Positions 10,121 to 30,434 of a DNA stretch of 42,600 nucleotides are shown piece by piece. Position 1 is the stretch's first letter. Each line of letters begins with the position of its first letter. This stretch comes from an uncultured Acetatifactor sp. Lineage in GTDB: Bacteria > Bacillota > Clostridia > Lachnospirales > Lachnospiraceae. A program made the translations under genes and the position numbers. The DNA is taken from contig CANPWC010000001.1 of NCBI GenBank assembly GCA_947581905.1, positions 1-42,600 of the forward strand. The letters are read 5' to 3'. The notes under the pieces are model-generated. The model was not told where the DNA came from. It worked only from the letters and a program-made list of their open reading frames with translations, and did not search any database.

Positions 10121-10149
10121 GCAGGCAAGGCATAGGCAAAGGGACGGTA

Positions 10150-10188: not shown

Positions 10189-10218
10189 TTGACTTTTGGG
10201 GAAGAAAGAAATTATAAT
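10189..10218 (+). promoter_or_regulatory. sigma-A promoter of XRE regulator
   Basis: TTGACT-18 nt-TATAAT in an AT-rich intergenic stretch. Confidence 0.65.
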
Positions 10219-10267
10219 GACATAAGGTTACTAGCAAGAATTGACTGGTCGAAGAGGGGGCCTTGGC

Positions 10268-11605
10268 ATGTCTATGTTCAGCGAATACCTGAATCAGTTG
10301 ATCCAGGGCAGAGGCATCACCATATCCAAGCTATCCAGGGAATCCGGCGTGGAACGGACCACGATCCATAAGGCTTTGACGGGCGGGCGTATTTTGTCCT
10401 ACCGCGCGATGGAAGCCTTAGCCTACTATTTGAAATTATCCCCCCAGGAATCACAGCAACTGAAACAATACCATGACATGTTATTTGAAGGAGAAGCCGC
10501 TTACCGGTCCCGGGAAGCCGTCACGGAGATGTTAAAAGACGTGTCGGACCTGTGGCTGTCCAGGCCCAGGGACGACCAGGAGCGCGGGCTGCCGGAATTG
10601 GACGACGTAAGGGAAAAGGAAGCGGCCATCTTCAAAGGCTATACGAAGATTGACAGGCTGGTGCAGCTGGTCCTGGCCGAGGAGATGGATTGCCCGGAGC
10701 CTGGCGTGCGGATGGCGGTCCCTGCCAGCGTCAAGGTCCTGGAGAACGGCGTGACGTGGCTGTACCGCCACTATTCCAAGGTGAAGATCACCCACATCAT
10801 CGCGCTGGACGCTTCCACTGAAAAATATAACCTCCACAACCTGGAATGTGTGCGCAATTCCCTGCCCGGCTGCGTGTTGTCCGGGCAGCAGTACCATGTT
10901 TATTATTATTACAGCGACCTGGTGAACGTCCAATATACGGACCCGCTTCCGTATTTCCTCCTGACCCACAACGGCGTGGTATGCTTTTCCCAGGATTGCC
11001 AGACGGCGATTTACCTGAAAGAAAAGGAACAGATCGAGTATTTCCGCATCTGCTTCGCCAATTTGGCGGCCTCATGCCGTAAGCTGGTGGAATACGTGGA
11101 GGATGCGGGGCAGGCATGGAAGGCTTTCTGGGACGCGTCCCTTGAGGACGGCTTATGCTGCCTGATGTCCCAGCCTGGCTTTTCCTTATCCCACGAGAAG
11201 CTCAATATGGCCTTTACGCGGGAGGGCGTCCGTACTTTCCTGGAAACGGGAAGGCAGTTCGACGTTCCCGGGAAGCCGCTTGAGGTGGCGGATGCCGCGA
11301 AACGGGAGGAGCTGGTCCTTAAGTTGTCCGCGTCCATCCAGAACGGGGCCAAGGCCAGGATTTTGAATGATTTCACGGTGGAATTTCCCCACGACCTGGC
11401 GATGCTGTCCAGCGCGAAACAGGGCATCCTCCTTTATGAGGTCAACGGGAAGTGGGCGATCCGGATCAAGGAGCCCAGCATCGGCCAGGCCTTGCATGAT
11501 TGGATGGTCCACCTGATGGACGGCAAAGGGGTGCAGGGGCAGGAGGAGACCCTGGAGACTTTGTGGGATGTTTTAAAAGTGTGGCAAAAGAGTCTTGCAG
11601 AATGA
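10268..11605 (+). CDS. XRE/Cro-type HTH transcriptional regulator with large C-terminal domain of unknown function
   Basis: N-terminal FSEYLNQLIQGRGITISKLSRESGVERTTIHKALTGGR is an HTH_3-like motif; the rest is not recognised. Confidence 0.75.
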   Translation: MSMFSEYLNQLIQGRGITISKLSRESGVERTTIHKALTGGRILSYRAMEALAYYLKLSPQESQQLKQYHDMLFEGEAAYRSREAVTEMLKDVSDLWLSRPRDDQERGLPELDDVREKEAAIFKGYTKIDRLVQLVLAEEMDCPEPGVRMAVPASVKVLENGVTWLYRHYSKVKITHIIALDASTEKYNLHNLECVRNSLPGCVLSGQQYHVYYYYSDLVNVQYTDPLPYFLLTHNGVVCFSQDCQTAIYLKEKEQIEYFRICFANLAASCRKLVEYVEDAGQAWKAFWDASLEDGLCCLMSQPGFSLSHEKLNMAFTREGVRTFLETGRQFDVPGKPLEVADAAKREELVLKLSASIQNGAKARILNDFTVEFPHDLAMLSSAKQGILLYEVNGKWAIRIKEPSIGQALHDWMVHLMDGKGVQGQEETLETLWDVLKVWQKSLAE

Positions 11606-11690: not shown

Positions 11691-12752
11691 ATGAGAATCA
11701 GATTAGCGATACTTGAGAAAGACCAAAGCTATTTGACGCGGATCGTATCTGCCTTCAGCAGCAGGTTCGCGGATAAGTTTGAGATTTATTCCTTTACCGA
11801 CAAGGATGTGGCCCTGGCTACGCTGGACAGCGCCAGGATTGACGTGCTTGTGGCGAGCGATGTTTTCGATATTGACGTGAAGGCTTTGCCCAAGAGGTGC
11901 GGCTTCGCTTATTTCGTGGATTCGTTCGGCGTTGACACCATCAACGACCAGGTGGCGATCTGCAAGTTCCAGAAGGCGGAATTGATTTACCGCCAGATTT
12001 TAAGCATTTATTCAGAGAAAGCGGGCAGCCTCTTCGGCATGAAGTCCGACGACGAGAGCACGAAGATCTTCCTGTTCAATTCCGTGAGCGGCGGGACGGG
12101 CGCTTCCTCCATGGCGGCGGCCTGCGCGGTGCATCTTGCTTCCCAGGGCAAGAAAGTATTGTACCTTGACCTGGAGAAGTTCGGCTCCTCCAATTCTTTC
12201 TTCAGCGGGGAGGGGCAGTTCGACCTAAGCGACATCATCTATGCCTTAAAGAGCAGGAAGACCAACCTTTCCTTAAAGCTGGAAAGCAGCGTGAAGCAGG
12301 ATTACAGCGGCGTATACTTCTTCGACGCCCCCAAGGTGGCCCTGGATATGATGGAGCTTGGCGGCGAGGACGTCCTGCAGCTGATCTCCGAGATCAAGAC
12401 GATGGGCGTATATGAATACCTGGTGCTGGACACCGATTTCGCTTTAAATAAGGATAGCTTGAGCCTTGCCCGGCAGGCGATCGCCGTCTGCTGGATCGGG
12501 GATGGCTCCGAGATTTCCAATGAGAAGACCCGCAGGGCGTTCCAGGCGCTTACGATCCTGGAGCAGAACGCGGACCTGCCTCTGCAGAACCGCCTGTATC
12601 TGATCTACAACAAGTTCAGCAACAAGACCAGCACGACCCTGGATGATTTAGGGGTTAAGAGCCTGGGCGGCGCGCCCAAGTACGAGCATGCCACATCGGC
12701 ACAGGTGCTGGAGCGCCTCGCGAAGCTGGAATTGTTCGACAACATCATCTGA
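11691..12752 (+). CDS. TadZ/CpaE-like pilus localisation protein (pseudo-receiver + MinD/ParA-like domain)
   Basis: Atypical receiver N-terminus, ICKFQKA linker, degenerate P-loop SVSGGTGASS, KKVLYLDLE, YEYLVLDT; first gene before tadA. Confidence 0.75.
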   Translation: MRIRLAILEKDQSYLTRIVSAFSSRFADKFEIYSFTDKDVALATLDSARIDVLVASDVFDIDVKALPKRCGFAYFVDSFGVDTINDQVAICKFQKAELIYRQILSIYSEKAGSLFGMKSDDESTKIFLFNSVSGGTGASSMAAACAVHLASQGKKVLYLDLEKFGSSNSFFSGEGQFDLSDIIYALKSRKTNLSLKLESSVKQDYSGVYFFDAPKVALDMMELGGEDVLQLISEIKTMGVYEYLVLDTDFALNKDSLSLARQAIAVCWIGDGSEISNEKTRRAFQALTILEQNADLPLQNRLYLIYNKFSNKTSTTLDDLGVKSLGGAPKYEHATSAQVLERLAKLELFDNII

Positions 12753-14137: not shown

Positions 14138-14998
14138 ATGGGATTATTCAAGAAAGAAACGAAAGTGCAAGAACCTCAGTACTATATGTCATCGACCAAC
14201 ATACCTACCTATAATTACAGGGTGTATTATATGAAGCCTTTGGAAAAGGCGCTGTACTTCCTGTTGGCGTTCGTGGTGGGCGCGGCCGTGGGCTACCTGT
14301 TCTACGGCGGCATCGGCAAGGATGAGTTCGGGCAGCCTACCATGGTGACCTGGGTGCTGAACATCCTCATCCCCTCCGTCGTGGGCATCGCGGCGGGCGT
14401 GCTGTTCATCCCGACCCGGACCAAGGCGATCATCGCGAAGAACCAAACCGAGCTGAACCACCAGTTCCGGGATATGCTGGACGCCCTGACCACCTCCTTG
14501 GGGGCAGGCAAGAACGTCAACGACTCCTTCTTCTCCACTTATGAGGACCTGAAGATCCAGTATAATGAGAACGCGTTCATCTTAAAGGAGCTGGATGTCA
14601 TCCTGGCGGGGATCCACAACAATGTGCCTATTGAGGATGTGCTTTACGATTTCGGCCTGCGCAGCAACAACGAGGACATCTTAAGCTTCGCCAACGTGTT
14701 CAAGATCAGCTACCGCAAGGGCGGCAACATGAAGGACATCATCCGCAACACCCACAGCATCTTGAGCGACAAGATGGAAATCCGGGAGGACATTGAGACG
14801 CTTGTCACCTCCAATAAGACAGAGCAGAACATCATGGTGGTGATGCCCATCGCCCTGATCGGCATCATCAAGATGATGAGCCCGGATTTCGCCAAGAACT
14901 TCGTGACCCCCACCGGCATCATGTCCACGACTTTTTCGCTGGTCATCTTCGTGGTCGCGTACTTCGTGGGCAAGTCCGTATTGGATATCAAGTTGTAG
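14138..14998 (+). CDS. tadB: Tad platform protein TadB (T2SSF family)
   Basis: Two N-terminal TMs, QFRDMLDAL..SL.AG, KGGNM..II and C-terminal TM pair; directly after tadA. Confidence 0.85.
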   Translation: MGLFKKETKVQEPQYYMSSTNIPTYNYRVYYMKPLEKALYFLLAFVVGAAVGYLFYGGIGKDEFGQPTMVTWVLNILIPSVVGIAAGVLFIPTRTKAIIAKNQTELNHQFRDMLDALTTSLGAGKNVNDSFFSTYEDLKIQYNENAFILKELDVILAGIHNNVPIEDVLYDFGLRSNNEDILSFANVFKISYRKGGNMKDIIRNTHSILSDKMEIREDIETLVTSNKTEQNIMVVMPIALIGIIKMMSPDFAKNFVTPTGIMSTTFSLVIFVVAYFVGKSVLDIKL

Positions 14999-15010
14999 GA
15001 GGTGGCGGGC

Positions 15011-15889
15011 ATGACAGGCTTGACGATATTAGACTTTGCAATCATCGCGCTGGGGGCGCTTTCCCTGATAGTCTGGCTCATCTTTTTCCTGAAAGGGAAA
15101 AAGTATAATTCCATGTTCGACGTGTTGGAGGAAAAGGAGTTCCCCCTGAAAGAAATCTACGGCATGGGCTATGCCGTGCTGGAGACGTTCAAGTATCAAT
15201 ATACCGGCAAAAAGGACAGGGAGCTGCGCCAGGAGATGGACGTCCTGTATGGCAATAAATATTCCGAATATTACCTCCGCGTGGTGCATGCGCAGCAAAT
15301 TTCCATCTCCATGACGGTGTTCGTGCTTTCGTTCACCTTCTACGGGCTGACCTCGGAAATCCTGGCGGTGCTCATCGGGTTGATGTTCACTTGGGCCGCC
15401 TACTACTATTACGGCACCTTGACGACGAAGAAGATCAAGGACCGTTCGGACGAGCTGCTCCACGACTTCTCCGAGGTCGTTTCCAAGCTGGCGCTGCTTA
15501 CCAACGCGGGCATGATCCTGCGCGAGGCCTGGCAGGAAGTGGCCATGGGCGGCACGTCCACCATTTACCAGGAGATGCAGGCTTCCGTCAACGACATGAA
15601 CAACGGCATGGCGGATGTGGACGCGATTTATAATTTCGGCACACGCTGCATCATCCCGGAAGTCAAGAAGTTCACCTCCACCATCATCCAGGGCGTCACC
15701 AAGGGCAACAGCGAGCTGACCATGATGCTCCAGGAGCAGAGCAAGGAAGTGTGGCAGATGAAGAAGCAGTTGGTAAGAAGGGAAGGGGAGAAAGCCGCGA
15801 GCAAGCTGATGATCCCCATCTGCATCATGTTCGTGGGAATCTTAGTCATGATCCTGATCCCCATCTTCACCAACCTGGGCGTTTCATAG
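15011..15889 (+). CDS. tadC: Tad platform protein TadC (T2SSF family)
   Basis: KLALLTNAGM..REAW, GEKAASKLMIP and C-terminal TM. RBS GGAGG lies 8 nt before ATG 15011. Confidence 0.85.
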   Translation: MTGLTILDFAIIALGALSLIVWLIFFLKGKKYNSMFDVLEEKEFPLKEIYGMGYAVLETFKYQYTGKKDRELRQEMDVLYGNKYSEYYLRVVHAQQISISMTVFVLSFTFYGLTSEILAVLIGLMFTWAAYYYYGTLTTKKIKDRSDELLHDFSEVVSKLALLTNAGMILREAWQEVAMGGTSTIYQEMQASVNDMNNGMADVDAIYNFGTRCIIPEVKKFTSTIIQGVTKGNSELTMMLQEQSKEVWQMKKQLVRREGEKAASKLMIPICIMFVGILVMILIPIFTNLGVS

Positions 15890-15949
15890 GGCTTTATTGT
15901 AATTTACATACATAAAAGCAAAATAATCCAACGAAAGGAGATGTTACCA

Positions 15950-16180
15950 ATGAGTGTACAGAGTCTTATGGTATTAGGCACGTACGCAAAGATGAAGCTG
16001 AGGGAGTTCTTCACGGATGAGGAAGGCGATGTGAACATCGTTTCCATCGTGGTTTTGATCGGCATCGCGGTCCTGTTGGCGCTGGTCTTCCAGGAGCAGA
16101 TTACGGGGCTTTTGAATTCCTTGTTCGATGTCATAAAGGGGAATGCGACCAGTGCTGTCAGCGGCGGTGGCAGAGAATAA
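15950..16180 (+). CDS. flp: Flp-type major pilin (clostridial Flp1-like)
   Basis: 76 aa; leader ending FFTDEEG followed by hydrophobic helix (DVNIVSIVVLIGIAVLLALVF). Strong RBS AAAGGAG 9 nt upstream. Confidence 0.8.
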   Translation: MSVQSLMVLGTYAKMKLREFFTDEEGDVNIVSIVVLIGIAVLLALVFQEQITGLLNSLFDVIKGNATSAVSGGGRE

Positions 16181-17064: not shown

Positions 17065-20000
17065 ATGAAAGCATTTCAGAACCAAAGAGGCGCGGTATCC
17101 ATCTTCCTGGTCTTGATCTTAGTGCCGATGCTGACCGTGTCGGCGCTCTTCGTGGATGCCAGCAAACTGTCCTTGGCCCGGTCCGTCAGCGCTTCCGCCA
17201 CGGATCTGGCGCTGAATACGGCGCTGACCAATTATGATACGAAGCTTAAGGATATGTACGGCTTGTTCGCCACGGCCCAGGATATGGACGATCTGTTTGG
17301 GCGGCTGGAGGATTATTATCGCACCTGCATCACATCCTCAGGGGTGGATGAGGAGGACGCGGAGTCTTATACGCAGAAGATCATGGCCCAGCTGGGACTG
17401 GTCGCGGACAGCGGGAATGTGGCGGACCTGCTGAATATGGAACTGATGGATTTCAGCGTCGAGAAATATAAGGATGCCAACCTGGCGAACCCTACCATCT
17501 TAAAGAAGCAGATCATAGACTTCATGAAATATCGCGCCCCCATCAATACGGGGATGAAGTTTGTGGCTGCCTTGGAATCTTTTACCACGCTGGGCAAGCA
17601 GACGAAGATGATCGAGGGCAGGACGAACTACTACAAGGAACAGCAGACTGCCATGGAGTATGCGCAGGCTGCCTGGTCGGAGATCAATGCTTACAACCGA
17701 AGTGAATTTATTACCAATGCCAGCTTCTTTTCTTTGTTAAAGACCGCGTTTGACGGCTATCAGGTACAGTATGAGGGGACGGCGGATGCGCAAAGGACGG
17801 ACGGCTTTGCCGGCAAGACCATCCGGGACCTGTATGGTAACGAGAATCGGGATATGCGGGGTTATGTGACCTATAATTATTATGCCGAATCCGTTGAAGA
17901 AGATGTGGGGAACGGCGTGAAAGAAATGATTCCGAGGTTTTATACGAATAGCGATAAGACGAGCTGGGACCTTGCATATATTGACATGACGACTTACTCT
18001 GAAGACGAGCCGGCCAATGCAGACGATATCAGGAGGACCTTGAAGAACTACTATGACGCGGAAGCCGCCTATGTGCAAGCAGAAAGCAACCTGCTGCCCA
18101 TCGATTTTGATAATTTAGGCGCGGTCTATGGCCTCCAATACCTGATGCAGACGGATCGGGGCAAGTATTATTCGGCCTGGACCTCTGCCATGAGGACGCT
18201 TTACCAGCGCTATAGCGAGATGCGGCATGCCGTGGCTTTTAAAGGCCAGGATGGCTTTATGACCTACACGGCCGATTTTGATGGTGATGGCGTGGAAACG
18301 TCTTATGGAGATTACTATAACCAGTTTTGTGTAAATTATGAAACACACTCAGGCATCTTTGATACAAATGTGACGAAGATGACGCCCACCCTTAAGAATT
18401 TTGCCAATGCCGTAGGTAACACGCAGACATCCACGACGGATACGAACAATAAGATCGTGGCTAATTATGAGCAGATCAGTAAGTATAGGAAAGCGATTGC
18501 CGACGCGGTGCCTCATCTGGTAAATGCGGTGGAACAGCTTGGGAAGCTTTATGATTGTGTCAAGCCTGGCGGGACGCTGGAGCAGAAAGCGGACGCCTGG
18601 CAGAAGACCACGGAGGATTCGGACGTGAAAGATACCTCCATGGCGAAGCAGGATCAGGCGGAGATCAAGGATGCTTCCTCTTATTTGGATGCGGACGAGG
18701 TGCAGAAGCTGATCGACCGTATCAATAACGTCATCCCGCACCTGCAAGACATGTTGACCCAGATTGACAGCTACAAGTTCTTCGGGACCTATATCGGGGA
18801 GATCAGTGATTATAATTCCCTGAAAAATCTGTTGAAATCGAGTATTGGTGATTATGAGCTGCTGCATGTCCCGACCACGACGGCTGAATTGAACGCCAAG
18901 GTAAGCGGATGGGTGAGCGGGAAGTTCGTCATTGGAAAGCCGGTGGACATTACCTGGAACAAGGGGGACAGCGCGGCGGACCTGACCATCAGCAATAAGC
19001 CGAAGTTCTATGATTACCTGCATTCCAAGTTCAATGCCGCGGGGACCGGCGACACGGATACGACTGAGAAAAAGGAGGATCAGGAAAACGGCGAGAACCT
19101 TTATAACAAAGTAAAGAGCAGTTTTAGCTCAAATGCCAGCGGAAGCAAGGATGAAGCGAAAAAGGGCAACATTTCTAATTCCCATGAGATTTCGGGGCTG
19201 TCAAACTTGCCTTCCAGTGGGAGCAATTACACGACGAAGAGCATGGACCTGACGCCGGATGAAAATTCCGCTTCTTCCGCTAGCGGGATTTCTTCGTTGT
19301 TTTCCCAGGGATTGTTAAACGCGATCGCCGACCTGGCCACGGACCTTAGGGACAACCTATATGTATCAGATTATATCCTGAGCATGTTCAGCTATGACAC
19401 GCTGGTCAAGGAGTATGAGAAAAATCATGACGGCGAGGAGGCCGGGGAAGAGGATATTAAGACCCTGACCTTGAATCCCATCAATGCCAAGTATAATTAT
19501 GCTTATGGCAAGGAAGTGGAATATGTCATTTACGGGGGAAAGAACGCAGACAACCTGGCGAAAGCCTATGGGACCATCTTCGCCATCCGTTTCGTGTTCA
19601 ATGTGATATACGCTTTCATGAGCTCTGAAGTGCGAAGCGAGGCCTTGGCTATCGCCACGCCGATTTCTGCGGCGACCCTGGGCATCATCCCGGTGCCGTT
19701 GATCCAGGCCATCCTGATCATTGGAATCGCCTGCTGTGAATCGGGCATTGACCTGGTGGAGCTTCGAGACGGAGAGAAGGTGCCCCTATTTAAGAGCAAG
19801 GATACCTGGCGTACTTCTATTAGCGGCATGGTGACTCTTGCGAAGGAGGAAACCGCGGAATTTTTGAAAGAAACTGGTAAAAAGGTAATTGACGCGGGCA
19901 CGGAGAAGTTGACAGAGCTCCTGGATATGGCGGATGAGGAGCTGACGAAATTCATTAACGATAATACAGAAGAATTTGAGAACCGTGTGGGCGGCGCTTT

Positions 20001-20877
20001 TGATGATCTGATCACCCGCCATGTCGAAGTGGCCATGCAAAAGGTAAGCACCCTGGTGGAGAATGCGCTCAATGAGAACCTGATGGACGACAGCGGGACG
20101 GATATTGTGACCGCCACTGTCAATGATACCTTAGATGGCCTGGATGAATGGCTGGCCCAGGAGGGTCCGAACCAGTCGGAGATCGTTTACCAGATTGAGC
20201 AGCAGGTGGTGCAGCTCTTACGTGAGAATTCGGGAGCGGCCCTTCGTCCTTATGTGCAGGCGGTCCAGGATGTCCGGAATGGAATAACGGGCAGTATTGA
20301 AGAAGCAAGTAATAAAATTTTGGATCAGCTCAATTCCATTAAGGGTAAAATCACTGGCAAAATCTCCGAGGTAGGTGGGATAGTAGAACAATATAAGGGA
20401 GAGATGGTCTCGAAAGTGAAAGAGTCTGCAAAAGAAGGCGCTGGAAAGCTGAAAGATACCTTGAATGAGCAGCTTGACAGCATCTTCGACAATGCCAGCG
20501 CGGATCCCAGCGTCGGCAGTACGGGAGGAGAGGGCGGAGATGGCTCCGGCTTGTCGTCCCTGATCGCGTTCGCTTACAGCGATTATTTGCGGCTGTTTTT
20601 GATCATTGGCTTGTTCGCGAACCAGGAATCCGTCTTGAAGCGGACGGCGGACGTCATCCAGGTGAATATGGCGATGCAGCCTCCTGTAAGCGACCCGTCC
20701 AGCGCCACGTTATCAGATTACGTCCTAAGCAAGTCCTCTGTCTATGTGCAGGTGACTTCCACGATCCAGGTAAAGCCCACCATGCTGGCGCTGCCGCTGT
20801 TTGCGGATGTGGAGAACAATCCGGCTTCGGATAGCGGCTGGTATACGTTTACTTCCTCGGACATCAGAGGATATTGA
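17065..20877 (+). CDS. giant TadG-like minor pilin/adhesin (1270 aa, DUF5702-like C-terminal region)
   Basis: NQRG/AVSIFLVLIL, L..YD..L...YGLFA, QI.DFMKYRAP, EVEYVIYG..N, and YSDYLRLFL motifs typical of firmicute Tad loci; family name from recall. Confidence 0.72.
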   Translation: MKAFQNQRGAVSIFLVLILVPMLTVSALFVDASKLSLARSVSASATDLALNTALTNYDTKLKDMYGLFATAQDMDDLFGRLEDYYRTCITSSGVDEEDAESYTQKIMAQLGLVADSGNVADLLNMELMDFSVEKYKDANLANPTILKKQIIDFMKYRAPINTGMKFVAALESFTTLGKQTKMIEGRTNYYKEQQTAMEYAQAAWSEINAYNRSEFITNASFFSLLKTAFDGYQVQYEGTADAQRTDGFAGKTIRDLYGNENRDMRGYVTYNYYAESVEEDVGNGVKEMIPRFYTNSDKTSWDLAYIDMTTYSEDEPANADDIRRTLKNYYDAEAAYVQAESNLLPIDFDNLGAVYGLQYLMQTDRGKYYSAWTSAMRTLYQRYSEMRHAVAFKGQDGFMTYTADFDGDGVETSYGDYYNQFCVNYETHSGIFDTNVTKMTPTLKNFANAVGNTQTSTTDTNNKIVANYEQISKYRKAIADAVPHLVNAVEQLGKLYDCVKPGGTLEQKADAWQKTTEDSDVKDTSMAKQDQAEIKDASSYLDADEVQKLIDRINNVIPHLQDMLTQIDSYKFFGTYIGEISDYNSLKNLLKSSIGDYELLHVPTTTAELNAKVSGWVSGKFVIGKPVDITWNKGDSAADLTISNKPKFYDYLHSKFNAAGTGDTDTTEKKEDQENGENLYNKVKSSFSSNASGSKDEAKKGNISNSHEISGLSNLPSSGSNYTTKSMDLTPDENSASSASGISSLFSQGLLNAIADLATDLRDNLYVSDYILSMFSYDTLVKEYEKNHDGEEAGEEDIKTLTLNPINAKYNYAYGKEVEYVIYGGKNADNLAKAYGTIFAIRFVFNVIYAFMSSEVRSEALAIATPISAATLGIIPVPLIQAILIIGIACCESGIDLVELRDGEKVPLFKSKDTWRTSISGMVTLAKEETAEFLKETGKKVIDAGTEKLTELLDMADEELTKFINDNTEEFENRVGGAFDDLITRHVEVAMQKVSTLVENALNENLMDDSGTDIVTATVNDTLDGLDEWLAQEGPNQSEIVYQIEQQVVQLLRENSGAALRPYVQAVQDVRNGITGSIEEASNKILDQLNSIKGKITGKISEVGGIVEQYKGEMVSKVKESAKEGAGKLKDTLNEQLDSIFDNASADPSVGSTGGEGGDGSGLSSLIAFAYSDYLRLFLIIGLFANQESVLKRTADVIQVNMAMQPPVSDPSSATLSDYVLSKSSVYVQVTSTIQVKPTMLALPLFADVENNPASDSGWYTFTSSDIRGY

Positions 20878-20945
20878 CCTGCCTGTGCCGTCGGCGTAAG
20901 GGAGGAATCAAGCGCCGCCCAATTGGCGGCAGAATGCGAGGAAAG

Positions 20946-22331
20946 ATGGATACGCGACAGAAGAGAGAACAAGGGTCTATCACGATAGAGGCCACGGTTT
21001 CCTTGTCCATGTTCATGTTTACCATTGTGACGGTCTTGACCCTGGTGAACATCTGCATGATCCAGGAAAGGATCGGCGTGGCGATCAGTGCCACGGCGAA
21101 GGAACTGTCCCAGTACAGTTACCTGTATTCCCTGACAGGCTTCCCGCAGAGCGAGGCGGAGCTTGCGGCGGCAGGCAAGAAGGACACGGAAGAAATGAAT
21201 GAAATCATGGGCAACATCAGCGCGGTATTCTCTTCCATGGAAGACATGGAAGGGACGGTTGCGGAATTGCCGAACTCAGACTTGTCCGAGGAAGCCTTGA
21301 CCGGCGCATGGGATTCCATTAATTCATCCCTTGACGACATCGAGGCAAGCGGGCAGGCGATCGAGAACTCCATAGAGGCCATTGCGGACGATCCCTCCAA
21401 GCTGATTTTCGGGATTGCCAAGCTGGCTGCCAGCGAAGGCTTGGAAATGGCGAAGTCCCGCCTGATCGCGGCCCCCTTGGCGAAGTTTTTCTGTAAGAAG
21501 CACTTGTGCGACAGCGGCAAAGATACGGAGGCTTTCCTGCGGCAGTTGGGCGTGGTCCCTTCTGCAAGCGGCAAGTATCTGGATGGGCTGGATTTCACCC
21601 AATCCTCCCTTTTCCCTTATGGGTCCAATGAGATCACCATCCGGGTTTCCTATGATGCCAAGGTCATACCGTTGCTTCCGTTGGATTTCACGTTCCACTT
21701 CCGTCAGACGGCCATTACCCATGGCTGGCTGTCAGGAGAGGTCACTTATAAGTCGTCGGAGGATGTGGCGGAGACCATTACAAAGGCGAATGAGAGCATA
21801 TGGACGCAGATGGAGCCTTCTGAGCGTGCCAAATTCATCCGAAAGCAAGTGACCGCGGACATGGGGGATGAAGGATATCTGAAAGTCAGCAGCTTTATCG
21901 AAAAAGGAAATAACAGCGGCATCGACCTTTATAACCCGGAGACCAATGAATTTGTGGCGATCCATTCTTTCAACCCGCTTGGTGAAGCCGAGACGTTGGA
22001 GAATCTGAATGATGATGTCTTACAGTCGACGATCGAGGAGTATTGCGGTTCCATTACCGCGACGACCAGTGGCAAGACCCAGGTCTATACCAGCAAGGGA
22101 CAGACAGATCCTCATGACTGCACTGGCGCCACCAATAGGGTCGTCCTGGTCATCCCGGAGGATGAAGGGTTTAAGGAAAAGATGGAAGAGATCATCGCGA
22201 AGTCTGAGAAGCGCGGCGTGACGATCGAGCTGGTGACAGGATATGGCAACGGCGCGCCCAAGACGGTGGTTTCCAAGAATCCGGAGCCTGCGGGCGAGGA
22301 AGCCTCTCCGGAACCTGCGGGAGGCGAATAA
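20946..22331 (+). CDS. TadE-like minor pilin with C-terminal nuclease-toxin-like domain
   Basis: REQG/SITIEATVSL prepilin motif with E+5, and ELSQYSY. The C-terminal about 150 aa resemble the CdiA-CT EC869-type fold (see findings). Confidence 0.75.
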   Translation: MDTRQKREQGSITIEATVSLSMFMFTIVTVLTLVNICMIQERIGVAISATAKELSQYSYLYSLTGFPQSEAELAAAGKKDTEEMNEIMGNISAVFSSMEDMEGTVAELPNSDLSEEALTGAWDSINSSLDDIEASGQAIENSIEAIADDPSKLIFGIAKLAASEGLEMAKSRLIAAPLAKFFCKKHLCDSGKDTEAFLRQLGVVPSASGKYLDGLDFTQSSLFPYGSNEITIRVSYDAKVIPLLPLDFTFHFRQTAITHGWLSGEVTYKSSEDVAETITKANESIWTQMEPSERAKFIRKQVTADMGDEGYLKVSSFIEKGNNSGIDLYNPETNEFVAIHSFNPLGEAETLENLNDDVLQSTIEEYCGSITATTSGKTQVYTSKGQTDPHDCTGATNRVVLVIPEDEGFKEKMEEIIAKSEKRGVTIELVTGYGNGAPKTVVSKNPEPAGEEASPEPAGGE

Positions 22332-22336
22332 GGAAG

Positions 22337-23056
22337 ATGAATCAGAATGATATGTTGACAGTTGGGATCGAGGTCGCGATGATGCTGCTTTCCACGGGGC
22401 TTGGTTATGCGGCGGCATGTTGTTACTTAAGGGGGGAGAAGCTGCTTGCCCTTCCTTGGAGGGATCTCCTCCCCAATACGCCGTCCAGGTTCTTATACCT
22501 GGCGGCGGAGCTTGGCTCTTTCGTGGCGCTCATTTACATGTTTCAAACGGTATACAAGTCCGAGCCGATCCACCGTGTCGGGCTGTTGGCGCTGGTGGCG
22601 TTCCTGTTCCCCATTGCCGCGGTGGACCATCGGACGCAGAAGATCCCGAACAAGTTCCTGCTTGCCGCCCTGTGGGCGCGGCTGGCGGTCCTGGCGGTCG
22701 ATGTGCTTTCCAGGGGGTTAGTCTATGGGGATGCGGCCGCTTCCATGGCGGACCGCTTCCTGCAGGTCGCCGTTGACTGCGGGGTAGGGGCGTTGGTCCT
22801 GGGAGGCTTCTTCTTACTGATTAAAGTGCTTTTCCGGGGAAGCCTCGGCATGGGGGATGTGAAGCTGTTTGCGCTCATCGGCCTGTACCAGGGCTTATGG
22901 GGAGCCATCAACTCCTTGTTTTTTTCCCTGGTGGCGGCGTTCCTCCTTTCCATCCTCTTGATGGCGACGAGGAAAAAGGGGCATAAGGATGTGATCCCGT
23001 TCGGCCCCAGCGTCCTGGTCGGGACGGTAATAGCAATAGGATTATCTGGAATATAG
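22337..23056 (+). CDS. A24 prepilin peptidase (TadV/CpaA-like)
   Basis: Polytopic membrane protein with both catalytic Asp motifs (AVDHRTQKIPN, GMGDVKL) and IPFGP. Confidence 0.9.
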   Translation: MNQNDMLTVGIEVAMMLLSTGLGYAAACCYLRGEKLLALPWRDLLPNTPSRFLYLAAELGSFVALIYMFQTVYKSEPIHRVGLLALVAFLFPIAAVDHRTQKIPNKFLLAALWARLAVLAVDVLSRGLVYGDAAASMADRFLQVAVDCGVGALVLGGFFLLIKVLFRGSLGMGDVKLFALIGLYQGLWGAINSLFFSLVAAFLLSILLMATRKKGHKDVIPFGPSVLVGTVIAIGLSGI

Positions 23057-24399: not shown

Positions 24400-26277
24400 A
24401 TGAGTAATTTTTCTTATGAGAACCAAGGAAACAATACTTTTCTGGTGTATGCGCTGGAAGAAAACGAAACCATCGATTCCATGGCGTTAGGGATGCTTAC
24501 GAACAACCGTATTCCGGGCCTTGCGCCTGCCATGTTCATGCAGATGAACGATACCAGGTTCATCAAGTACAACATCTCCTCCAAGGTCCAGGCGAGCCAG
24601 TTCTTCATGGGCCCGGTCAACCGCAAGAGGCTTTTGGGCGTGTTCGGCGGCATCGTGGACGCGATGCTTTCCGCGGAGGAATATATGATCGACCCCAATA
24701 CGCTCATGTTGGATCTGAATTACATTTTCGCGGATGTGAGCACCTGTGACACGGTGATGATCTGCCTGCCCGTCATGGGGGCGCAGTCCTCCGGCGTGGA
24801 CCTGGGGGCGTTTTTCCGCAACATCATTTTCACGACCCAGTTCGACCAGACGGAGAATTGTGACCATGTGGCGCTGCTCATCAACTACCTGAACAGCACG
24901 CAGGTGTTCTCCTTAACGGATTTCAAGGCTGTTTTGGACAGCATCGCAGGAAACGCGCCGAGGGCGGCGGCTCCTGCCCCCGCGCCGGCTCAGGCTCCCG
25001 TCCAGCAGCCTGCCCCTTCCCAGCCTGCCCAGCAGCCGTTCTACGGACAGCCTGCGCAGCCTAAGCCCGCGCCTACGCCCGCGCCCAAGCAGACGCCTCC
25101 TGTCCAGAACGTGCCACCCGTGCCGCCCGCGCAGCCTAAGAATGCCGCGCCGTTCGGCCTTGGGGCGCAGAACCAGAAGCAGAACGCTACGGTGGACATG
25201 TCCCGCCAGATGAACAATACGGTACCGAACATCCCGAACGTTCCGAATATTCCAAATGTCCCGAACGTCCCGAATGTCCCGAACATCCCCATTCCCGGCA
25301 GGGCCCCCGCGCAGCCTGCGGGAGCGCCGCAGCCTATGCCCGGCATGCCCGCCCCTGGCGCGCAGCCAAGCGGCGAGAAGCCCATGAGCGTGTTCTACCT
25401 GTTACAGCATTATAACAAAGAGAATGCGGAGATTTACAAAGCGCAGAAAGCGGAGAAGAAAGCCGGCAAGGGTGCAAAAGCGCCCGCGCAGCCTGCGGGA
25501 GCGCCGCAGCCGTTCGCACCGGCAGGCCCCGCTGGCGGCAACTTTGCCATGCCGGGGGCCCCGAAGCAGGGAGGCTTCGCGATCCCTGGACAGCCTGCGC
25601 CCGGACCGATGAGCATCCCTCAGCCGATGAACGCCGGCCAGCCCGGCATGCCGCCGCAGGGGCAGCCGAACATGGCACGCCCGATGCCGCCGCAGGGTCA
25701 GCCTAACATGGCACGTCCCATGCCGTCGCAGGGGCAGCCGAACATGGCACGCCCGATGCCGCCGCAGGGTCAGCCTAACATGGGCCGTCCAATGCCGCCC
25801 CAGGGCCAGCCTAGCATGCCGCAGCCCGCTCCTGCGCCTACGCCCGCGCCGCAGCCCATGCCTCGTCCGGTCATCCCCAATATGCCTTTGGGCGCTGATT
25901 TCGGGGAGACCAGCTTCGTCGATGTGGCGGATGATGATTCCAGCACGGTCATCATGGGAATGGGACAGACCCAACAGCAGTTTTCGCCGCACCTGATCCA
26001 TAAGAGCAACAACGAGAAGATCCCCATCAACAAGGAGATTTTCCGCATTGGCAGGGACGCTGACTTTAATGATTACGTGGTGACGAACAACCAGAGCGTA
26101 GGCCGCAGCCACTGTCATATTCTGACCAGGAATGGGGAATATTTTATCGTGGATGATAATTCCAAGAACCATACCTACGTGGATGGCGTGAACGCCCCCT
26201 CCGGATGCGAAGTCAAGATTTCCCACGGCCAGAACATCCGGCTGTCGAATGAAGAATTTGAATTCAGATTGTTTTAG
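24400..26277 (+). CDS. FHA-domain protein (DUF6382-like N-terminal domain, Pro/Gln-rich linker, C-terminal FHA)
   Basis: GMLTNNRIPGL..YNISSK..EEYMID..L.LD..YIF N-terminal domain and FRIGR...VGRSH...SKNHTYVDG FHA. Confidence 0.85.
   Translation: MSNFSYENQGNNTFLVYALEENETIDSMALGMLTNNRIPGLAPAMFMQMNDTRFIKYNISSKVQASQFFMGPVNRKRLLGVFGGIVDAMLSAEEYMIDPNTLMLDLNYIFADVSTCDTVMICLPVMGAQSSGVDLGAFFRNIIFTTQFDQTENCDHVALLINYLNSTQVFSLTDFKAVLDSIAGNAPRAAAPAPAPAQAPVQQPAPSQPAQQPFYGQPAQPKPAPTPAPKQTPPVQNVPPVPPAQPKNAAPFGLGAQNQKQNATVDMSRQMNNTVPNIPNVPNIPNVPNVPNVPNIPIPGRAPAQPAGAPQPMPGMPAPGAQPSGEKPMSVFYLLQHYNKENAEIYKAQKAEKKAGKGAKAPAQPAGAPQPFAPAGPAGGNFAMPGAPKQGGFAIPGQPAPGPMSIPQPMNAGQPGMPPQGQPNMARPMPPQGQPNMARPMPSQGQPNMARPMPPQGQPNMGRPMPPQGQPSMPQPAPAPTPAPQPMPRPVIPNMPLGADFGETSFVDVADDDSSTVIMGMGQTQQQFSPHLIHKSNNEKIPINKEIFRIGRDADFNDYVVTNNQSVGRSHCHILTRNGEYFIVDDNSKNHTYVDGVNAPSGCEVKISHGQNIRLSNEEFEFRLF
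25225..25287 (+). repeat. 9-bp coding tandem repeat x7 (P-N-I/V)
   Basis: CCGAACATC CCGAACGTT CCGAATATT CCAAATGTC CCGAACGTC CCGAATGTC CCGAACATC. Confidence 0.9.
25648..25818 (+). repeat. 36-bp coding tandem repeat x4.75 (MPPQGQPNMARP)
   Basis: Units start at 25648, 25684, 25720, 25756 and 25792 (partial). Confidence 0.92.
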
Positions 26278-26288
26278 GTGCATGCTTT

Positions 26289-27059
26289 ATGGATTTTTAC
26301 ATTTCTGCCACGACGGATGTCGGCATCAAAAGGGATGTGAACCAGGACAGCTTGTTTGTGCGTAAATTGGAGACGCGGACCGGCGACATGGTGTTTGCCG
26401 TGCTCTGCGACGGGATGGGCGGCCTTAAGTTCGGCGAGGTCGCCAGTTCCAGCATAGTCAACGCGTTCTCCGATTGGATGTATACGTACTTGCCGAACCT
26501 GTCCCAGGCCCCCCTAGAGGACCATGTGGTCCGTTCCCATTGGGAATCGGTCATTACCGCCCAGAACAGCAAGATCCGGGAGTACGGCTGGAAGCACGGC
26601 TGTACCACGGGGTCTACCGTGACTGCGCTGCTTTTGACGCAGCAGAGGTATTTCTTGCTCAATATCGGGGATTCCCGTGCTTACGAGATCGATGGTTCGG
26701 TAAGGCAGATGACCACGGACCATACGGTCATCGAGAATGAGATCCGCATGGGCAACATGACCGAGGAACAGGCGATGAAGTCCCCCATGAGGAGCGTGCT
26801 GACACGGTGCGTGGGAGTGGAGGAAAGCGTAAGCCCCGATATGTTTTTCGGGGATGTGAAGCGGGACGCCGTCTATATGCTGTGTTCGGACGGCTTCCGG
26901 CACGCCCTTTCCAAGGAGGAGATCCAGGCGAAGCTGTACCGGGAAGTGCGCGGCGATGCGGCGCAAATGAAACGGCAGGAGGAATATTTGGTTGAGCTTA
27001 ACAAGTCTAGGGGAGAAACTGATAACATCTCCGTTGTTACAATATATGTTGGAGCATAA
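26289..27059 (+). CDS. PP2C/PPM-family Ser/Thr protein phosphatase
   Basis: TDVGIKR..NQDS, CDGMGG, NIGDSRAY, TTDH, LCSDG and DNIS are all present. Confidence 0.93.
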   Translation: MDFYISATTDVGIKRDVNQDSLFVRKLETRTGDMVFAVLCDGMGGLKFGEVASSSIVNAFSDWMYTYLPNLSQAPLEDHVVRSHWESVITAQNSKIREYGWKHGCTTGSTVTALLLTQQRYFLLNIGDSRAYEIDGSVRQMTTDHTVIENEIRMGNMTEEQAMKSPMRSVLTRCVGVEESVSPDMFFGDVKRDAVYMLCSDGFRHALSKEEIQAKLYREVRGDAAQMKRQEEYLVELNKSRGETDNISVVTIYVGA

Positions 27060-27060
27060 G

Positions 27061-27306
27061 ATGCTCTTCCTGGGGATTGGGATCGGGATCCTGGTCCTTC
27101 TTGCCGCGGCCGTGCTTTTGATCGTATTGCTGGACCGTAAAAAGAAGCGTAAAGCCGCCCCCGCGGGGAAGCCGCCTGGGGAAAGCACGGTGGAGCTCCC
27201 TCCTGTGCAGGAGGTTTATGAGGAATTATATCAAGTGACCGGCTTCCGGGTGGTGGAGGATATCACCTACCTCGGCACGGAGACCGGGGTCATGGAGTTG
27301 GTTTAG
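27061..27306 (+). CDS. small single-pass membrane protein
   Basis: GGAG 6 nt before an ATG 1 nt after the PP2C stop; hydrophobic helix followed by RKKKRK, so the C-terminal tail is probably cytoplasmic. Confidence 0.65.
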   Translation: MLFLGIGIGILVLLAAAVLLIVLLDRKKKRKAAPAGKPPGESTVELPPVQEVYEELYQVTGFRVVEDITYLGTETGVMELV

Positions 27307-27362
27307 GTTTCCGGACCAGCTTCGCAGGGTAGGAAGCGTCCGGAAGGGAAAGGAAGTTAGTT

Positions 27363-27548
27363 ATGGGCTTACTGATGAATGAGATGCTGTTTTACGGCGG
27401 GATCGCGCTGGCGGCGGCGGCGCTGCTGGCCGGGCTCATCTTCTTTTGCATATCCCAGGTCATAGGAACGCGCTTAATGGCGCAGCTCGACTCGGAATAC
27501 GGGCCGAGGGTGGATGAGAAGAAGCAGAAGAAAACGAAAAAGCGGTAA
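27363..27548 (+). CDS. small single-pass membrane protein
   Basis: AAGGAAG upstream; TM helix followed by a basic tail; fills the operon gap before the kinase. Confidence 0.65.
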   Translation: MGLLMNEMLFYGGIALAAAALLAGLIFFCISQVIGTRLMAQLDSEYGPRVDEKKQKKTKKR

Positions 27549-27569
27549 ACAAGGTAAAGGAATCAGGAC

Positions 27570-30434
27570 ATGTCAGAAATAATTGCTTCAACCTATGAAA
27601 TTGTGGCAAGGATAGGGGCCGGCGGCGGAGGCGTCGTCTACCTCGCCAATCATTTAAGGCTGGGGAAGCGGGTCGTCTTAAAGGCGGATAAGCGTAAGAT
27701 CACCACCCGCCCGGAGCTTTTGAGGCGTGAGGTGGATATCCTGAAGGATTTGAGCCACCCTTATATCCCCCAGGTGTATGACTTCTTCGTGGAAAACGAC
27801 GTGGTCTACACGGTCATGGACTATATTGAGGGCGAGAGCCTGGATAATCCATTGAAGCGTGGGGAGCGGTATCCCCAGGCCCAGGTGATCAAGTGGGCGC
27901 GGCAGCTTCTGGAGGCGCTCCAATACCTGCACAGCCCGATCCATGGCAATCCGCCGAAAGGTTACGTACATAGCGACATTAAGCCTGCCAACCTGATGCG
28001 CAGGCCGAACAATGATATCTGTTTGATCGATTTTAACATCGCCCTGGCCTTAGGGGAGGAGAATGTGATCGGCTGCAGCGCCGGTTATGCTTCCCCGGAA
28101 CATTATGGCCTGGACTTTTCCACAGATGGCGCCGGGACGGCGACCATCGCGCGCGGCACGGATACGGTCGCGCGCGGGGATGAGACGGTGACGCTTGCCG
28201 TAAACAGCTCTTCCTCCAGTTCGATGCGTAAACGGGCCGTCCTGCCGGACGTGCGGTCCGACATTTACAGCGTGGGAGCCACTTTATACCATTTATTAAG
28301 CGGACAGCGCCCGTCCAGGAGCGCGTTGGAGGTAGTGCCGCTTAGCACCCAGGAATTTAGCCCCCAGATCGTGCATATCATCAGCAAGTCCATGAACCCC
28401 AACCCGGACCTGCGGTATCAGACGGCGGAGGAGATGCTTTATGACCTGAACCACCTGCATGAGAACGATCCCCGCCTGATCAAGTGGAAAAAGGGCAGGC
28501 ATGTGGCGGCAGGGGCGTTCGGAGCTTTCCTGGTGGCGGGCGTGGCATGCGCCTTCCTGGGGCTTCGCCGGATGCAGATTTCGGAAAGTTGGCTGAAAAT
28601 GGCGGAGTATTCCCGCACGGCCCTTTCGGAGGGGGATACGGTGGCAGCCATCGATTATGCCCTCCAGGCGATCCCGGAGAAATCCAGCCTGTTCGTGCCG
28701 CCTTATCCGGCGGAAGCGCAGTTGGCCTTGACGGACGCCTTGGGCGTATATGACCTGTCGGACGGCTTTAAGACGGACCGGGCCCTGGAACTGCCGGCCG
28801 CCCCGTTCAAGCTTGCGGCTTCTCCGCAGGGCAGCCGTTTTGCCGCGGTTTACGCGTTCGAGGCGGCGGTGTTCGAGATGGAGGATCAGGAAAAGATCGC
28901 GTCCCTGCCCATCCAGGAGTCCGCGTTGTCGGATTGCCTGTTCGTGGATGAGGACCGGATCGTCTATGCCGGCGCGGACGGCGTCTCTGTCTATGACCTG
29001 GAAAAGGGGGAGGCGGTTTGGACCGGGGAAGCGGCTACGACCCTTGCCCTTTCAGCGGACGCAAGCCGCGTGGCCGCCGTGGACCGGGATGCGGAACGTG
29101 TCGTGGTCTATCAGGCCTCGGACGGCCAGGTGGTGGCGGAGCGTTCCTTTGACGGGAAGCATCTGCCGGTAGCGGCCAATGATATTTTCGCGGACCCGGA
29201 GGACGCCCTGTTCGCCCTGAATGCGGACGGCACCTTGTTGGCGGCAAGTTTTTCCGATGGGGCGCTGATGATTTTGGATGTAGAGGACCCGGAAGGGGAC
29301 ATGATTTTGTTTGACGAGTCGCAGTACCGCCATTTCGAGGGCGGCTTCTGCGGGAAATATCTGGCTTTCGCCGCAGGAGGGACCGGGGACGCGCTGTTTG
29401 GCATGGTGGATACGATGGAAGCTTCCTACCTGGGAGGCTTTGAATCCCAGGACGCGTTCCACCTGAAAGCCGGGGAAGACGGCATCTATCTTGCCACCGG
29501 CAGCCTTCTGGAGCGGGTGGAGGTCAAGGAAGGCGCAGAGGCCCAGATCGAGGAGCAGGAGCTGGCTTATGCGGAGAACGCGTACCTGACCGGCTTCGCG
29601 ATCGGGCAAGATTATATCTTGACTTCCATGGAAGATGGAAGCTTCGCCTTTTATGACAGCGGCGCTCATTTATCCTCGTTAGAGGCCGTGGATGTGGCGT
29701 ATGACTTCCTGGAGATCACTGCGGACCATGCCATCCTGGGCAGCCGCAACGACCCTGTGCTGCGCCTGATGAAGCTGGAGGGGCATGAGGACGCGCAGCT
29801 TCTGAAATATGACGCGCGGTACGTCCATGACGAAGCCCGTATCAGCGCGGACGGCAAGACGGCCATGTTATTCAGTAATTTCGGCTTCCGGATTTACGAC
29901 ATGGATGGCAGCCTGGTGACGGAGGTGGAGATCCCGGACCCCGATACGATTTATGACCAGCAGTTCCGCAAGGAGGATGACGAGTCCTACCTGGAAGTGA
30001 TCTGGTATGACGGGACCGTGCGCTGCTACAGCGCCCAGGATGGGACGGTGGTTTCCGAGGAAACCAGGGAAGCGCCGGACAAGGATCTGGAAGAGGAGTT
30101 TACGACGGACCGCTATCGGATCGCCTCTTCCCTGCATGACGCGCCCCAGGTCTATGATTTAAAGAGCGGCAAGTTCGTGGCAAGCCTGGAGGCGGATTCC
30201 TACCTCACATATGTGACCCAGGTGGGAGAGTATCTTATCACGGAGTACATCAGCACGTCTGGAGACCGTTACGGCATCCTGTTGGATGAGGACCTGCAGA
30301 AGTTGGCCTATCTGCCCAACCTTTGCGATGTGATGGACGGCGAGACGTTGGTGTTCGATTATGAATCAGGGAATTTGCGGCAAAGCCGCTTATATTCCAT
30401 CCGGGAGCTGGTAACTCTCGGGGAAAAATATTAA
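27570..30434 (+). CDS. receptor-type Hanks Ser/Thr protein kinase with beta-propeller-like extracellular region
   Basis: GAGGGGVVY, VVLK, HSDIKPANL, LIDFN, GYASPE, SDIYSVG; one TM (AGAFGAFLVAGVACAFLGL); acidic beta-repeat C-terminus. Confidence 0.92.
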   Translation: MSEIIASTYEIVARIGAGGGGVVYLANHLRLGKRVVLKADKRKITTRPELLRREVDILKDLSHPYIPQVYDFFVENDVVYTVMDYIEGESLDNPLKRGERYPQAQVIKWARQLLEALQYLHSPIHGNPPKGYVHSDIKPANLMRRPNNDICLIDFNIALALGEENVIGCSAGYASPEHYGLDFSTDGAGTATIARGTDTVARGDETVTLAVNSSSSSSMRKRAVLPDVRSDIYSVGATLYHLLSGQRPSRSALEVVPLSTQEFSPQIVHIISKSMNPNPDLRYQTAEEMLYDLNHLHENDPRLIKWKKGRHVAAGAFGAFLVAGVACAFLGLRRMQISESWLKMAEYSRTALSEGDTVAAIDYALQAIPEKSSLFVPPYPAEAQLALTDALGVYDLSDGFKTDRALELPAAPFKLAASPQGSRFAAVYAFEAAVFEMEDQEKIASLPIQESALSDCLFVDEDRIVYAGADGVSVYDLEKGEAVWTGEAATTLALSADASRVAAVDRDAERVVVYQASDGQVVAERSFDGKHLPVAANDIFADPEDALFALNADGTLLAASFSDGALMILDVEDPEGDMILFDESQYRHFEGGFCGKYLAFAAGGTGDALFGMVDTMEASYLGGFESQDAFHLKAGEDGIYLATGSLLERVEVKEGAEAQIEEQELAYAENAYLTGFAIGQDYILTSMEDGSFAFYDSGAHLSSLEAVDVAYDFLEITADHAILGSRNDPVLRLMKLEGHEDAQLLKYDARYVHDEARISADGKTAMLFSNFGFRIYDMDGSLVTEVEIPDPDTIYDQQFRKEDDESYLEVIWYDGTVRCYSAQDGTVVSEETREAPDKDLEEEFTTDRYRIASSLHDAPQVYDLKSGKFVASLEADSYLTYVTQVGEYLITEYISTSGDRYGILLDEDLQKLAYLPNLCDVMDGETLVFDYESGNLRQSRLYSIRELVTLGEKY

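What the first reader, a model, noticed from the sequence alone, without database searches (positions are those of the whole stretch)
21801..22247. TadE-like minor pilin carries a CDI-toxin-like PD-(D/E)xK nuclease fold with a degenerate active site
Seen: after the pilin domain comes W..MEPSERAKFIR...NNSGIDLYNPETNEFVAIHSFN...VLQSTIEEY...NRVVLVIPED...AKSEKRGVTIELV. From recall this matches the CdiA-CT EC869/YPIII DNase family in order and spacing (N...FDYY......SVKSID...VYSSIK.....RE..LAIP......GV.V.V). The metal-binding Asp appears kept (GID, 21924-21926). The catalytic Glu position appears to be Arg and S-x-K reads A-I-H. No immunity ORF follows; the peptidase starts 5 nt later. Inference: a toxin nuclease fold repurposed as a pilus-displayed nucleic-acid-binding or receptor domain (DNA uptake or eDNA adhesion), or a variant effector delivered by the pilus.
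Basis: partly seen in the sequence, partly recalled or inferred. Interest (0 to 1): 0.9.

Follow-up and report, generated by a model that had tools for sequence, protein, structure and literature searches.

The report
Disarmed toxin nuclease on Tad pilin
A pilus protein of this gut-type bacterium ends in a domain predicted to fold like a known antibacterial DNase toxin but lacking three of its four catalytic residues, likely kept as a harmless contact domain on the pilus, while a few relatives carry other toxin domains with likely immunity genes in the same slot.

Summary
Observation confirmed. The C-terminal domain of this TadE-like minor pilin (21801-22247) is predicted to have the fold of the CdiA-CT DNases 4G6U and 4ZQU (AlphaFold pLDDT 93; top two hits in Foldseek and VIA-align, Z 11.7 and 9.5). 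Their E177/D198/S209/K211 site reads R/D/A/H here, and no immunity gene follows.

Two corrections. The 'kept' Asp is private to this protein (1 of 144 close relatives). The domain is strongly acidic (net -13), which argues against DNA binding.

The fusion is old and common: 53 of 54 PF21111 hits in 400 genomes of the class are TadE fusions, one per genome. Only 1 of 343 non-toxin domains keeps all four residues, yet close pairs show dN/dS 0.08-0.25.

The slot is modular. Of 68 related loci, 43 carry the dead domain, 20 carry none, 2 carry a TNT domain plus a likely immunity gene, and 1 carries an LXG/PT-TG-type domain plus a small ORF.

Best reading: a domesticated toxin domain serving as a non-catalytic pilus-tip contact module (about 0.55). 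Boldest reading: these Tad pili deliver polymorphic toxins (about 0.3). Not found in ten paper searches. Function is untested.

The parts
20934..22331 (+). TadE-like minor pilin gene; start is ATG 20934 or 20946 (the TTG at 20874 is probably too far upstream)
   Evidence: relatives begin about 8-10 residues before the prepilin Gly
20973..20990 (+). Prepilin peptidase motif, Gly then Glu at +5 (G-S-I-T-I-E)
   Evidence: Gly and Glu invariant in 24 diverse TadE and 72 full-length relatives
20973..21728 (+). Pilin part: long N-terminal helix, low-confidence helical insertion, alpha/beta head
   Evidence: model; 11 of 24 aligned members hit Pfam TadE at E<=0.05, the query itself does not
21801..22247 (+). 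EC869-like (PF21111-related) PD-(D/E)xK fold domain with a degenerate active site
21840..21842 (+). Arg at the position of catalytic Glu177; Arg in 143 of 144 close relatives
21924..21926 (+). Asp at the position of Asp198; present only in the query among 144 close relatives
21957..21965 (+). A-I-H at the position of S209-x-K211; Lys in 0 of 144 close relatives
22044..22121 (+). Two cysteines (22044, 22119) flanking a beta-hairpin region; both present in 124 of 145 rows; disulfide inferred, not shown
22248..22328 (+). Short acidic, Pro/Gly-rich tail, poorly conserved
11691..12752 (+). TadZ-like protein
   Evidence: Pfam PF21194
12889..14127 (+). CpaF/TadA ATPase
   Evidence: Pfam PF00437
14138..15889 (+). 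TadB-like and TadC platform proteins
   Evidence: PF00482 for 15002-15889; 14138-14998 only a weak ArlJ/FlaJ match, TadB by position
15941..16180 (+). Flp1-like major pilin
   Evidence: Pfam PF16982
16325..17050 (+). First TadE-like minor pilin
   Evidence: Pfam PF07811
17065..20877 (+). Large TadG-like DUF5702 protein, 1270 aa
   Evidence: PF18960 over cut-off, PF13400 just under
22337..23056 (+). A24 prepilin peptidase, directly after the TadE gene
   Evidence: Pfam PF01478
23063..24388 (+). WG-repeat protein
   Evidence: Pfam PF14903
24400..30434 (+). DUF6382-FHA protein, PP2C phosphatase and Ser/Thr kinase: a likely threonine-phosphorylation control module
   Evidence: similar parts are described at T7SSe/f loci (PMC11217815, passages)

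Best explanation
This is a TadE-like minor pilin whose C-terminal domain is predicted to have the EC869-type toxin DNase fold, lacks three of four catalytic residues, and likely works as a non-catalytic contact domain at the Tad pilus tip. Steps: (1) the A24 peptidase would cut the prepilin at Gly 20973 (motif shown, cleavage inferred); (2) the pilin would join the two upstream minor pilins at the pilus tip, with the domain outside the cell (inferred from Tad biology); (3) the domain would bind a partner protein or a cell-surface ligand rather than cut or hold DNA, using the refilled active-site face (two near-invariant Arg, N-P-L motif) or the hairpin that binds the immunity protein in the toxin (inferred). 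It likely came from a polymorphic toxin early in this class of bacteria, lost catalysis stepwise, and needs no immunity gene.
For: Fold. Loss of the site: 1 of 343 distinct non-toxin domains keeps all four residues, 4 of 4 RHS/CdiA toxin domains do. Kept by selection: dN/dS 0.08-0.25 in the 8 pairs at least 60% identical with dS under 1.5; Arg at the Glu position in 143 of 144. Old and single-copy: 53 of 54 PF21111 hits in 400 genomes are TadE fusions, one per genome. No immunity gene: in 42 of 43 loci the peptidase starts within about 170 nt, and the 43rd (L035) has a 257-nt gap with no ORF listed. Acidic surface and a Cys pair suit an outside, non-DNA role. Precedent for the logic: inactive GHH toxin nuclease in teneurin adhesion proteins (PMC3482391, passages).
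Against: No partner or ligand was identified. The domain is absent in 20 of 66 complete related TadE genes and lost several times on the tree, so it is dispensable. Net charge is a crude measure: the two conserved Arg could still bind a phosphate. The wider TadE-fused family is near neutral (median -0.5, 24 of 54 positive), so the acid argument covers only the query's clade. The direction toxin-to-pilin rests on four toxin sequences and a quick tree.
Confidence: 0.55

Rival explanations
1. The dead nuclease is a DNA-binding tip that catches DNA for uptake or sticks to extracellular DNA.
For: Nuclease fold; two near-invariant Arg in the old active-site helix; the genome has ComEC; other TadE proteins end in a Cys/His zinc-finger-like tail (about 22 of 66 loci by eye), one with a weak Ada_Zn_binding match (E 0.046, under cut-off); Flp pili are tied to transformation in one actinobacterium (PMC4322843, search listing only).
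Against: Net charge -13, pI 4.5; close-clade median -8, 3 of 145 positive. No DNA-uptake gene in the locus. The genome has other pilus ATPases that could serve ComEC.
Confidence: 0.18
2. The domain is only a structural cap or spacer that stabilises the tip complex and binds nothing specific.
For: Lost repeatedly (20 of 66 loci; at least 5 changes forced by well-supported branches); the four site positions vary widely between lineages; replaceable by unrelated domains.
Against: Surface-type residues are nearly invariant in the clade (R14 100%, R19 99%, N63 100%, P64 99%), more than a spacer would need.
Confidence: 0.17
3. The domain is a still-active variant nuclease or toxin delivered by the pilus, using a rearranged site (His for Lys, or the Asp two residues upstream in relatives).
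For: CdiA-CT E479 uses His in place of Lys (PMC9086364, passages); the query has Asp and His; 118 of 145 close rows have an Asp two positions before; one TadE (L117) has an intact E-D-S-K site and no immunity gene, so an outward-facing nuclease may need none.
Against: His in only 12 of 144 and Asp in 1 of 144 close relatives; the query lacks the upstream Asp (Gly); Glu replaced by Arg removes a metal ligand; no immunity gene in 43 of 43 loci; no tip polymorphism among close relatives.
Confidence: 0.1

Closest known systems
CdiA-CT EC869-like DNases (PDB 4G6U E. coli, 4ZQU Y. pseudotuberculosis YPIII; Pfam PF21111)
   Same: Predicted fold, order of elements and hairpin insertion position.
   Different: Three of four catalytic residues replaced, no immunity gene, acidic, Cys pair, carried by a pilin rather than CdiA or RHS; 13-16% identity; under the Pfam cut-off.
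TadE/TadF/TadG minor pilins of Gram-positive tad loci (PMC3244431, passages)
   Same: Prepilin motif, position in a complete tad operon before the A24 peptidase.
   Different: Extra C-terminal toxin-derived domain; the slot varies across lineages.
Myxococcus Kil Tad pilus tips (PMC12075869, abstract start and passages)
   Same: Tad minor pilins with variable C-terminal domains predicted at the tip, predicted disulfides, one tip with toxic activity.
   Different: Gram-negative predator working with a needleless T3SS; no EC869-like domain mentioned in the passages seen ('nuclease' 0 occurrences).
Flp pilin-ARC toxin fusions (PMC12605009, passages and section 8)
   Same: A polymorphic toxin domain fused to a Tad-type pilin.
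   Different: One line in an architecture survey, on a different toxin; no TadE, no dead domain, no clostridial locus named.
Teneurin inactive GHH domain (PMC3482391, passages)
   Same: A polymorphic-toxin nuclease domain kept in inactive form on a surface protein.
   Different: HNH fold, animals, RHS scaffold; an analogy, not a relative.

Membership tests
CdiA-CT EC869-like DNase toxins (PF21111) | PD-(D/E)xK core fold closest to 4G6U/4ZQU | tested here: met
CdiA-CT EC869-like DNase toxins (PF21111) | Sequence homology to the family | tested here: inconclusive
   No direct Pfam match. Linked in two steps: A2 to A3 probability 98.2, E 5e-14; A3 to 4G6U E 8e-17.
CdiA-CT EC869-like DNase toxins (PF21111) | Active site E177, D198, S209, K211 | tested here: not met
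   R, D, A, H in the query
CdiA-CT EC869-like DNase toxins (PF21111) | Cognate immunity gene directly downstream | tested here: not met
   Peptidase 5 nt after the stop; same order in 43 of 43 loci. The RHS/CdiA controls L089, L190, L193 have a downstream ORF.
CdiA-CT EC869-like DNase toxins (PF21111) | Metal-dependent DNase activity and toxicity | not testable with these tools
   needs bench assays
TadE-like minor pilin | Gly then Glu+5 prepilin motif with a hydrophobic helix | tested here: met
TadE-like minor pilin | Encoded in a tad operon with ATPase, platform, Flp pilin and A24 peptidase | tested here: met
TadE-like minor pilin | Pfam TadE match or pilin fold match | tested here: inconclusive
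   Query has no PF07811 hit; 11 of 24 aligned relatives do. Foldseek of the full model listed no pilin.
Polymorphic toxin system | Conserved carrier with exchanged toxin C-termini, each with an immunity gene | tested here: inconclusive
   Seen in 3 of 68 related loci at three separate places on the carrier tree; not seen in this locus or among its close relatives.
Polymorphic toxin system | Orphan toxin/immunity cassettes downstream | tested here: not met
   None among the 30 window proteins scanned
Polymorphic toxin system | Delivery of the domain into a target cell | not testable with these tools
   needs competition assays

The most novel reading that the evidence does not exclude
Tad pili of this class of Gram-positive anaerobes are an unrecognised polymorphic-toxin platform: the last TadE is the carrier, its C-terminal slot takes live toxins with immunity genes in some lineages (two independent TNT captures, one LXG/PT-TG-type domain, one intact EC869-like nuclease), and the default cargo across the class is an ancient, disarmed toxin nuclease turned into the pilus-tip receptor, under a kinase/phosphatase/FHA switch shared with type VII systems.
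Probability: 0.3. Interest if true: 0.88.

Novelty: new variant of a known kind. Interest (0 to 1): 0.7.

Why it matters
PF21111 is named as a toxin family, yet in this class nearly all its matches (53 of 54) are disarmed or partly disarmed pilin tips, so automatic 'CDI toxin' labels on these gut and soil anaerobes are mostly misleading. It is a clean, widespread bacterial case of a toxin domain domesticated into a surface structure, with intermediates still alive (intact, three carboxylates without Lys, fully refilled). It also gives a handle on what Gram-positive Tad pili bind, and names three toxin-immunity pairs that make Tad-dependent antagonism in Gram-positive bacteria directly testable.

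Tried and rejected
Kelch-repeat hits: one short hairpin matched six times with per-stretch E above 3; rejected. Direct Pfam and NCBIfam scans of the query: nothing useful. PF21111 search of the own genome: no match even at E 1. Foldseek of the full-length model: no pilin listed, only 4G6U/4ZQU again; inconclusive. Type VII link in this genome: no WXG100 and no EssC over cut-off (genome 95% complete). TNT on TadE in the 400-genome sample: 12 of 401 genomes have TNT, none on an ORF matching the TadE profile in the loci returned, so toxin-tipped TadE is rare. Relatives of the TNT-tipped L049 carrier: 10 hits, only itself with TNT; no rapid tip exchange shown. Viral contigs: no relative of the L089 domain. 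Promoter and terminator scan: at chance level. RNA runs: no RNA holder listed. dN/dS for distant pairs: 40 of the 48 pairs with dS under 1.5 are below 60% identical and were set aside as saturated; they give 0.35-1.0. WG-repeat protein as the domain's partner: dropped because it also follows TadE genes without the domain. No complex prediction was run. Earlier findings: three look-ups showed nothing.

Full report
Observation. The stretch 21801-22247 is the C-terminal domain of a 485-codon ORF (20874-22331; likely start 20934 or 20946) and contains every motif quoted. The ORF is the third minor-pilin-like gene of a complete tad operon: TadZ, CpaF, two platform genes, Flp1-like pilin, TadE, a 1270-aa DUF5702 protein, this gene, then the A24 peptidase 5 nt later, a WG-repeat protein, DUF6382-FHA, PP2C and a Ser/Thr kinase. 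Named relatives are Lachnospiraceae, Oscillospiraceae and other Bacillota; that the window's class is Clostridia is my inference from those titles.

Fold. A model built from 42 domain sequences has pLDDT 92.9. Its only Foldseek hits under E 1e-3 are 4ZQU and 4G6U. VIA-align against 48,161 chains ranks the same two first (Z 11.7, rmsd 3.7, 133 aligned; Z 9.5, rmsd 4.0, 119 aligned), followed by another CdiA-CT and restriction-type nucleases. The language-model search also points to PF21111. The query alone is too diverged for Pfam, but its family profile matches a profile of 46 PF21111-positive domains (probability 98.2, E 5e-14), which matches 4G6U at E 8e-17.

Active site. The review PMC9086364 (passages) gives E177, D198, S209, K211 for both structures. 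With an offset of 5 between chain index and paper numbering, which I read, these map to Arg 21840, Asp 21924, Ala 21957 and His 21963. Among 144 distinct domains at least 35% identical to the query, the Glu position is Arg in 143, the Asp position is Asp only in the query (mostly Gln, His, Pro), and Lys occurs in none. The Asp is therefore not evidence of a kept metal site in this clade; more distant lineages do keep it often (75 of 110 representatives). Across 343 distinct non-toxin domains, 174 keep none of the four residues, 93 one, 61 two, 14 three and 1 all four; 4 of 4 RHS/CdiA domains keep all four. That set has some genes found twice with different ends and some metagenome fragments whose TadE part is not seen; 47 of 274 fetched proteins were dropped first for lacking or only partly covering the domain.

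Distribution. PF21111 matched 54 of 400 genomes of the class, once each (one genome not scored). I read all 54: 53 begin with a prepilin motif (46 by pattern, the rest by eye) and one (L089) is an RHS toxin with an intact site and a 184-aa downstream ORF. In a phylum-wide sample 2 of 401 genomes matched, one over the cut-off, with two RHS toxins. The query's clade is missed by Pfam, so 53 is a floor. A quick tree of 151 of 348 domains, thinned at 45% identity, puts the four toxins together (support 85) inside the PF21111-positive group and the query's clade at the far end of a long, well-supported branch (99). This fits one early capture and stepwise decay but does not prove direction.

Selection and chemistry. 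The 8 pairs at least 60% identical with dS under 1.5 give dN/dS 0.08-0.25 (820 pairs computed, none including the query). Near-invariant positions in the clade include W6, E13, R14, R19, N63, P64, L65, P124, D126 and two Cys. The query domain has net charge -13; the clade median is -8; intact-site L089 and L117 are +3 and +5; the PF21111-positive group is near neutral. The Cys pair flanks the region that aligns with the toxin's hairpin; the review says this hairpin binds the immunity protein, and its residue range 242-252 is recalled, not from a call.

The slot is modular. Of 68 loci from named genomes: 43 carry the nuclease-fold domain, 20 end after the pilin head, 2 carry TNT (L032, L049; Pfam E 6e-15 and 6e-26), 1 (L050) carries a domain whose predicted structure matches parts of LXG and PT-TG proteins (TM 0.81-0.85), and 2 were set aside (L064 cut by the contig end, L067 split). 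The peptidase follows directly in 42 of 43 and 20 of 20 loci of the first two kinds, but in 0 of 3 toxin-type loci, where a small ORF of 77-164 aa intervenes (no peptidase within 1.3 kb in L032). The two ORFs after TNT match ORFs lying directly after non-TadE TNT genes in five other genomes (E 3e-8 to 8e-5), so they are likely immunity genes. On a quick tree of 71 carriers the three toxin-type tips sit in three places, two of them next to nuclease-fold carriers, and the domain-less state recurs. In 66 further loci from the 400 genomes, about 38 have the nuclease fold, about 22 a Cys/His zinc-finger-like tail and 6 almost no tail (by eye); none has TNT.

Mechanism. Shown: fold prediction, loss of the site, conservation, gene order, exchange of tips. 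Inferred: processing, tip position, outside location, and binding of a protein or cell-surface partner. I put this at 0.55, DNA binding at 0.18, plain structural cap at 0.17, active variant at 0.10. Missing immunity is weaker evidence than it looks, because L117 has an intact site and no immunity gene; an outward-facing nuclease may not need one.

Prior work. Ten searches of the held library listed no paper on TadE fused to this domain; 'PF21111' and 'Tad, pilin, Clostridia, DUF5702' gave 0 papers. The survey PMC3482391 has no 'pilin', 'pilus' or 'TadE' in the 300,000 of 357,715 characters held (passages). PMC12605009 names Flp pilins among ARC toxin carriers (passages and section 8). PMC12075869 describes variable, partly toxic Tad tips in Myxococcus (passages). 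PMC11217815 notes Tad genes beside T7SSg/h and DUF6382-FHA with phosphatase at T7SSe/f (passages). PMC3244431 describes clostridial tad operons (passages). I read no supplements; those of PMC11217815 and PMC3482391 could list such loci, subscription papers are not searched, and domain databases may already show the architecture automatically.

Verdict. Real, correctly spotted, and wider than one gene: a new variant of a known kind, not a member of the toxin family by function. Interest 0.7; 0.88 if Tad-dependent toxin delivery is shown.

Noticed in passing
L032:322-2171 and L049:9947-11643: TadE carriers with a C-terminal TNT domain and a small likely immunity gene, in Anaerocolumna xylanovorans and Clostridium lacusfryxellense; separate captures on the carrier tree.
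   Followed up: yes
L050:9953-11697: TadE with an unnamed C-terminal domain structurally like parts of LXG and PT-TG proteins (weak lead to ADP-ribosyl cyclase clusters, score 0.82), followed by an overlapping 164-aa ORF of no family.
   Followed up: partly
L117 (G194:C9, about 3370-4600, minus strand): The only TadE found with an intact E-D-S-K site; basic domain; followed by a peptidase-like gene, not an immunity gene. A candidate live pilus nuclease.
   Followed up: partly
L140-L147, L150, L151 (family f25): Ten TadE domains keep three carboxylates (E, D, D) but have Phe for the catalytic Lys: a possible metal-binding, non-cutting intermediate.
   Followed up: no
L153 (G000:C3:3500-12500): The genome has a second Tad locus whose TadE ends in a Cys/His zinc-finger-like tail; a second CpaF-like ATPase lies on the same contig.
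   Followed up: partly
window 24400-30434: DUF6382-FHA, PP2C and kinase genes resemble the regulatory parts described for T7SSe/f, but the genome shows no WXG100 or EssC match.
   Followed up: partly
window 17065-20877: The 1270-aa TadG-like DUF5702 protein has long unannotated regions that could hold the main adhesin.
   Followed up: no
window 30455-34054: A 1199-aa protein with two C-terminal LysM domains follows the kinase; it may belong to the same operon.
   Followed up: no
L067:10001-11283: The TadE gene is split into two ORFs (169 and 254 aa) in this assembly.
   Followed up: no
L131:2855-3382: A TadE with a very diverged nuclease-fold domain is followed by a 175-aa lipoprotein-like ORF instead of the peptidase.
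   Followed up: no
window 8366-11605: An S8 peptidase and a 454-aa XRE-type regulator lie just upstream of tadZ.
   Followed up: no
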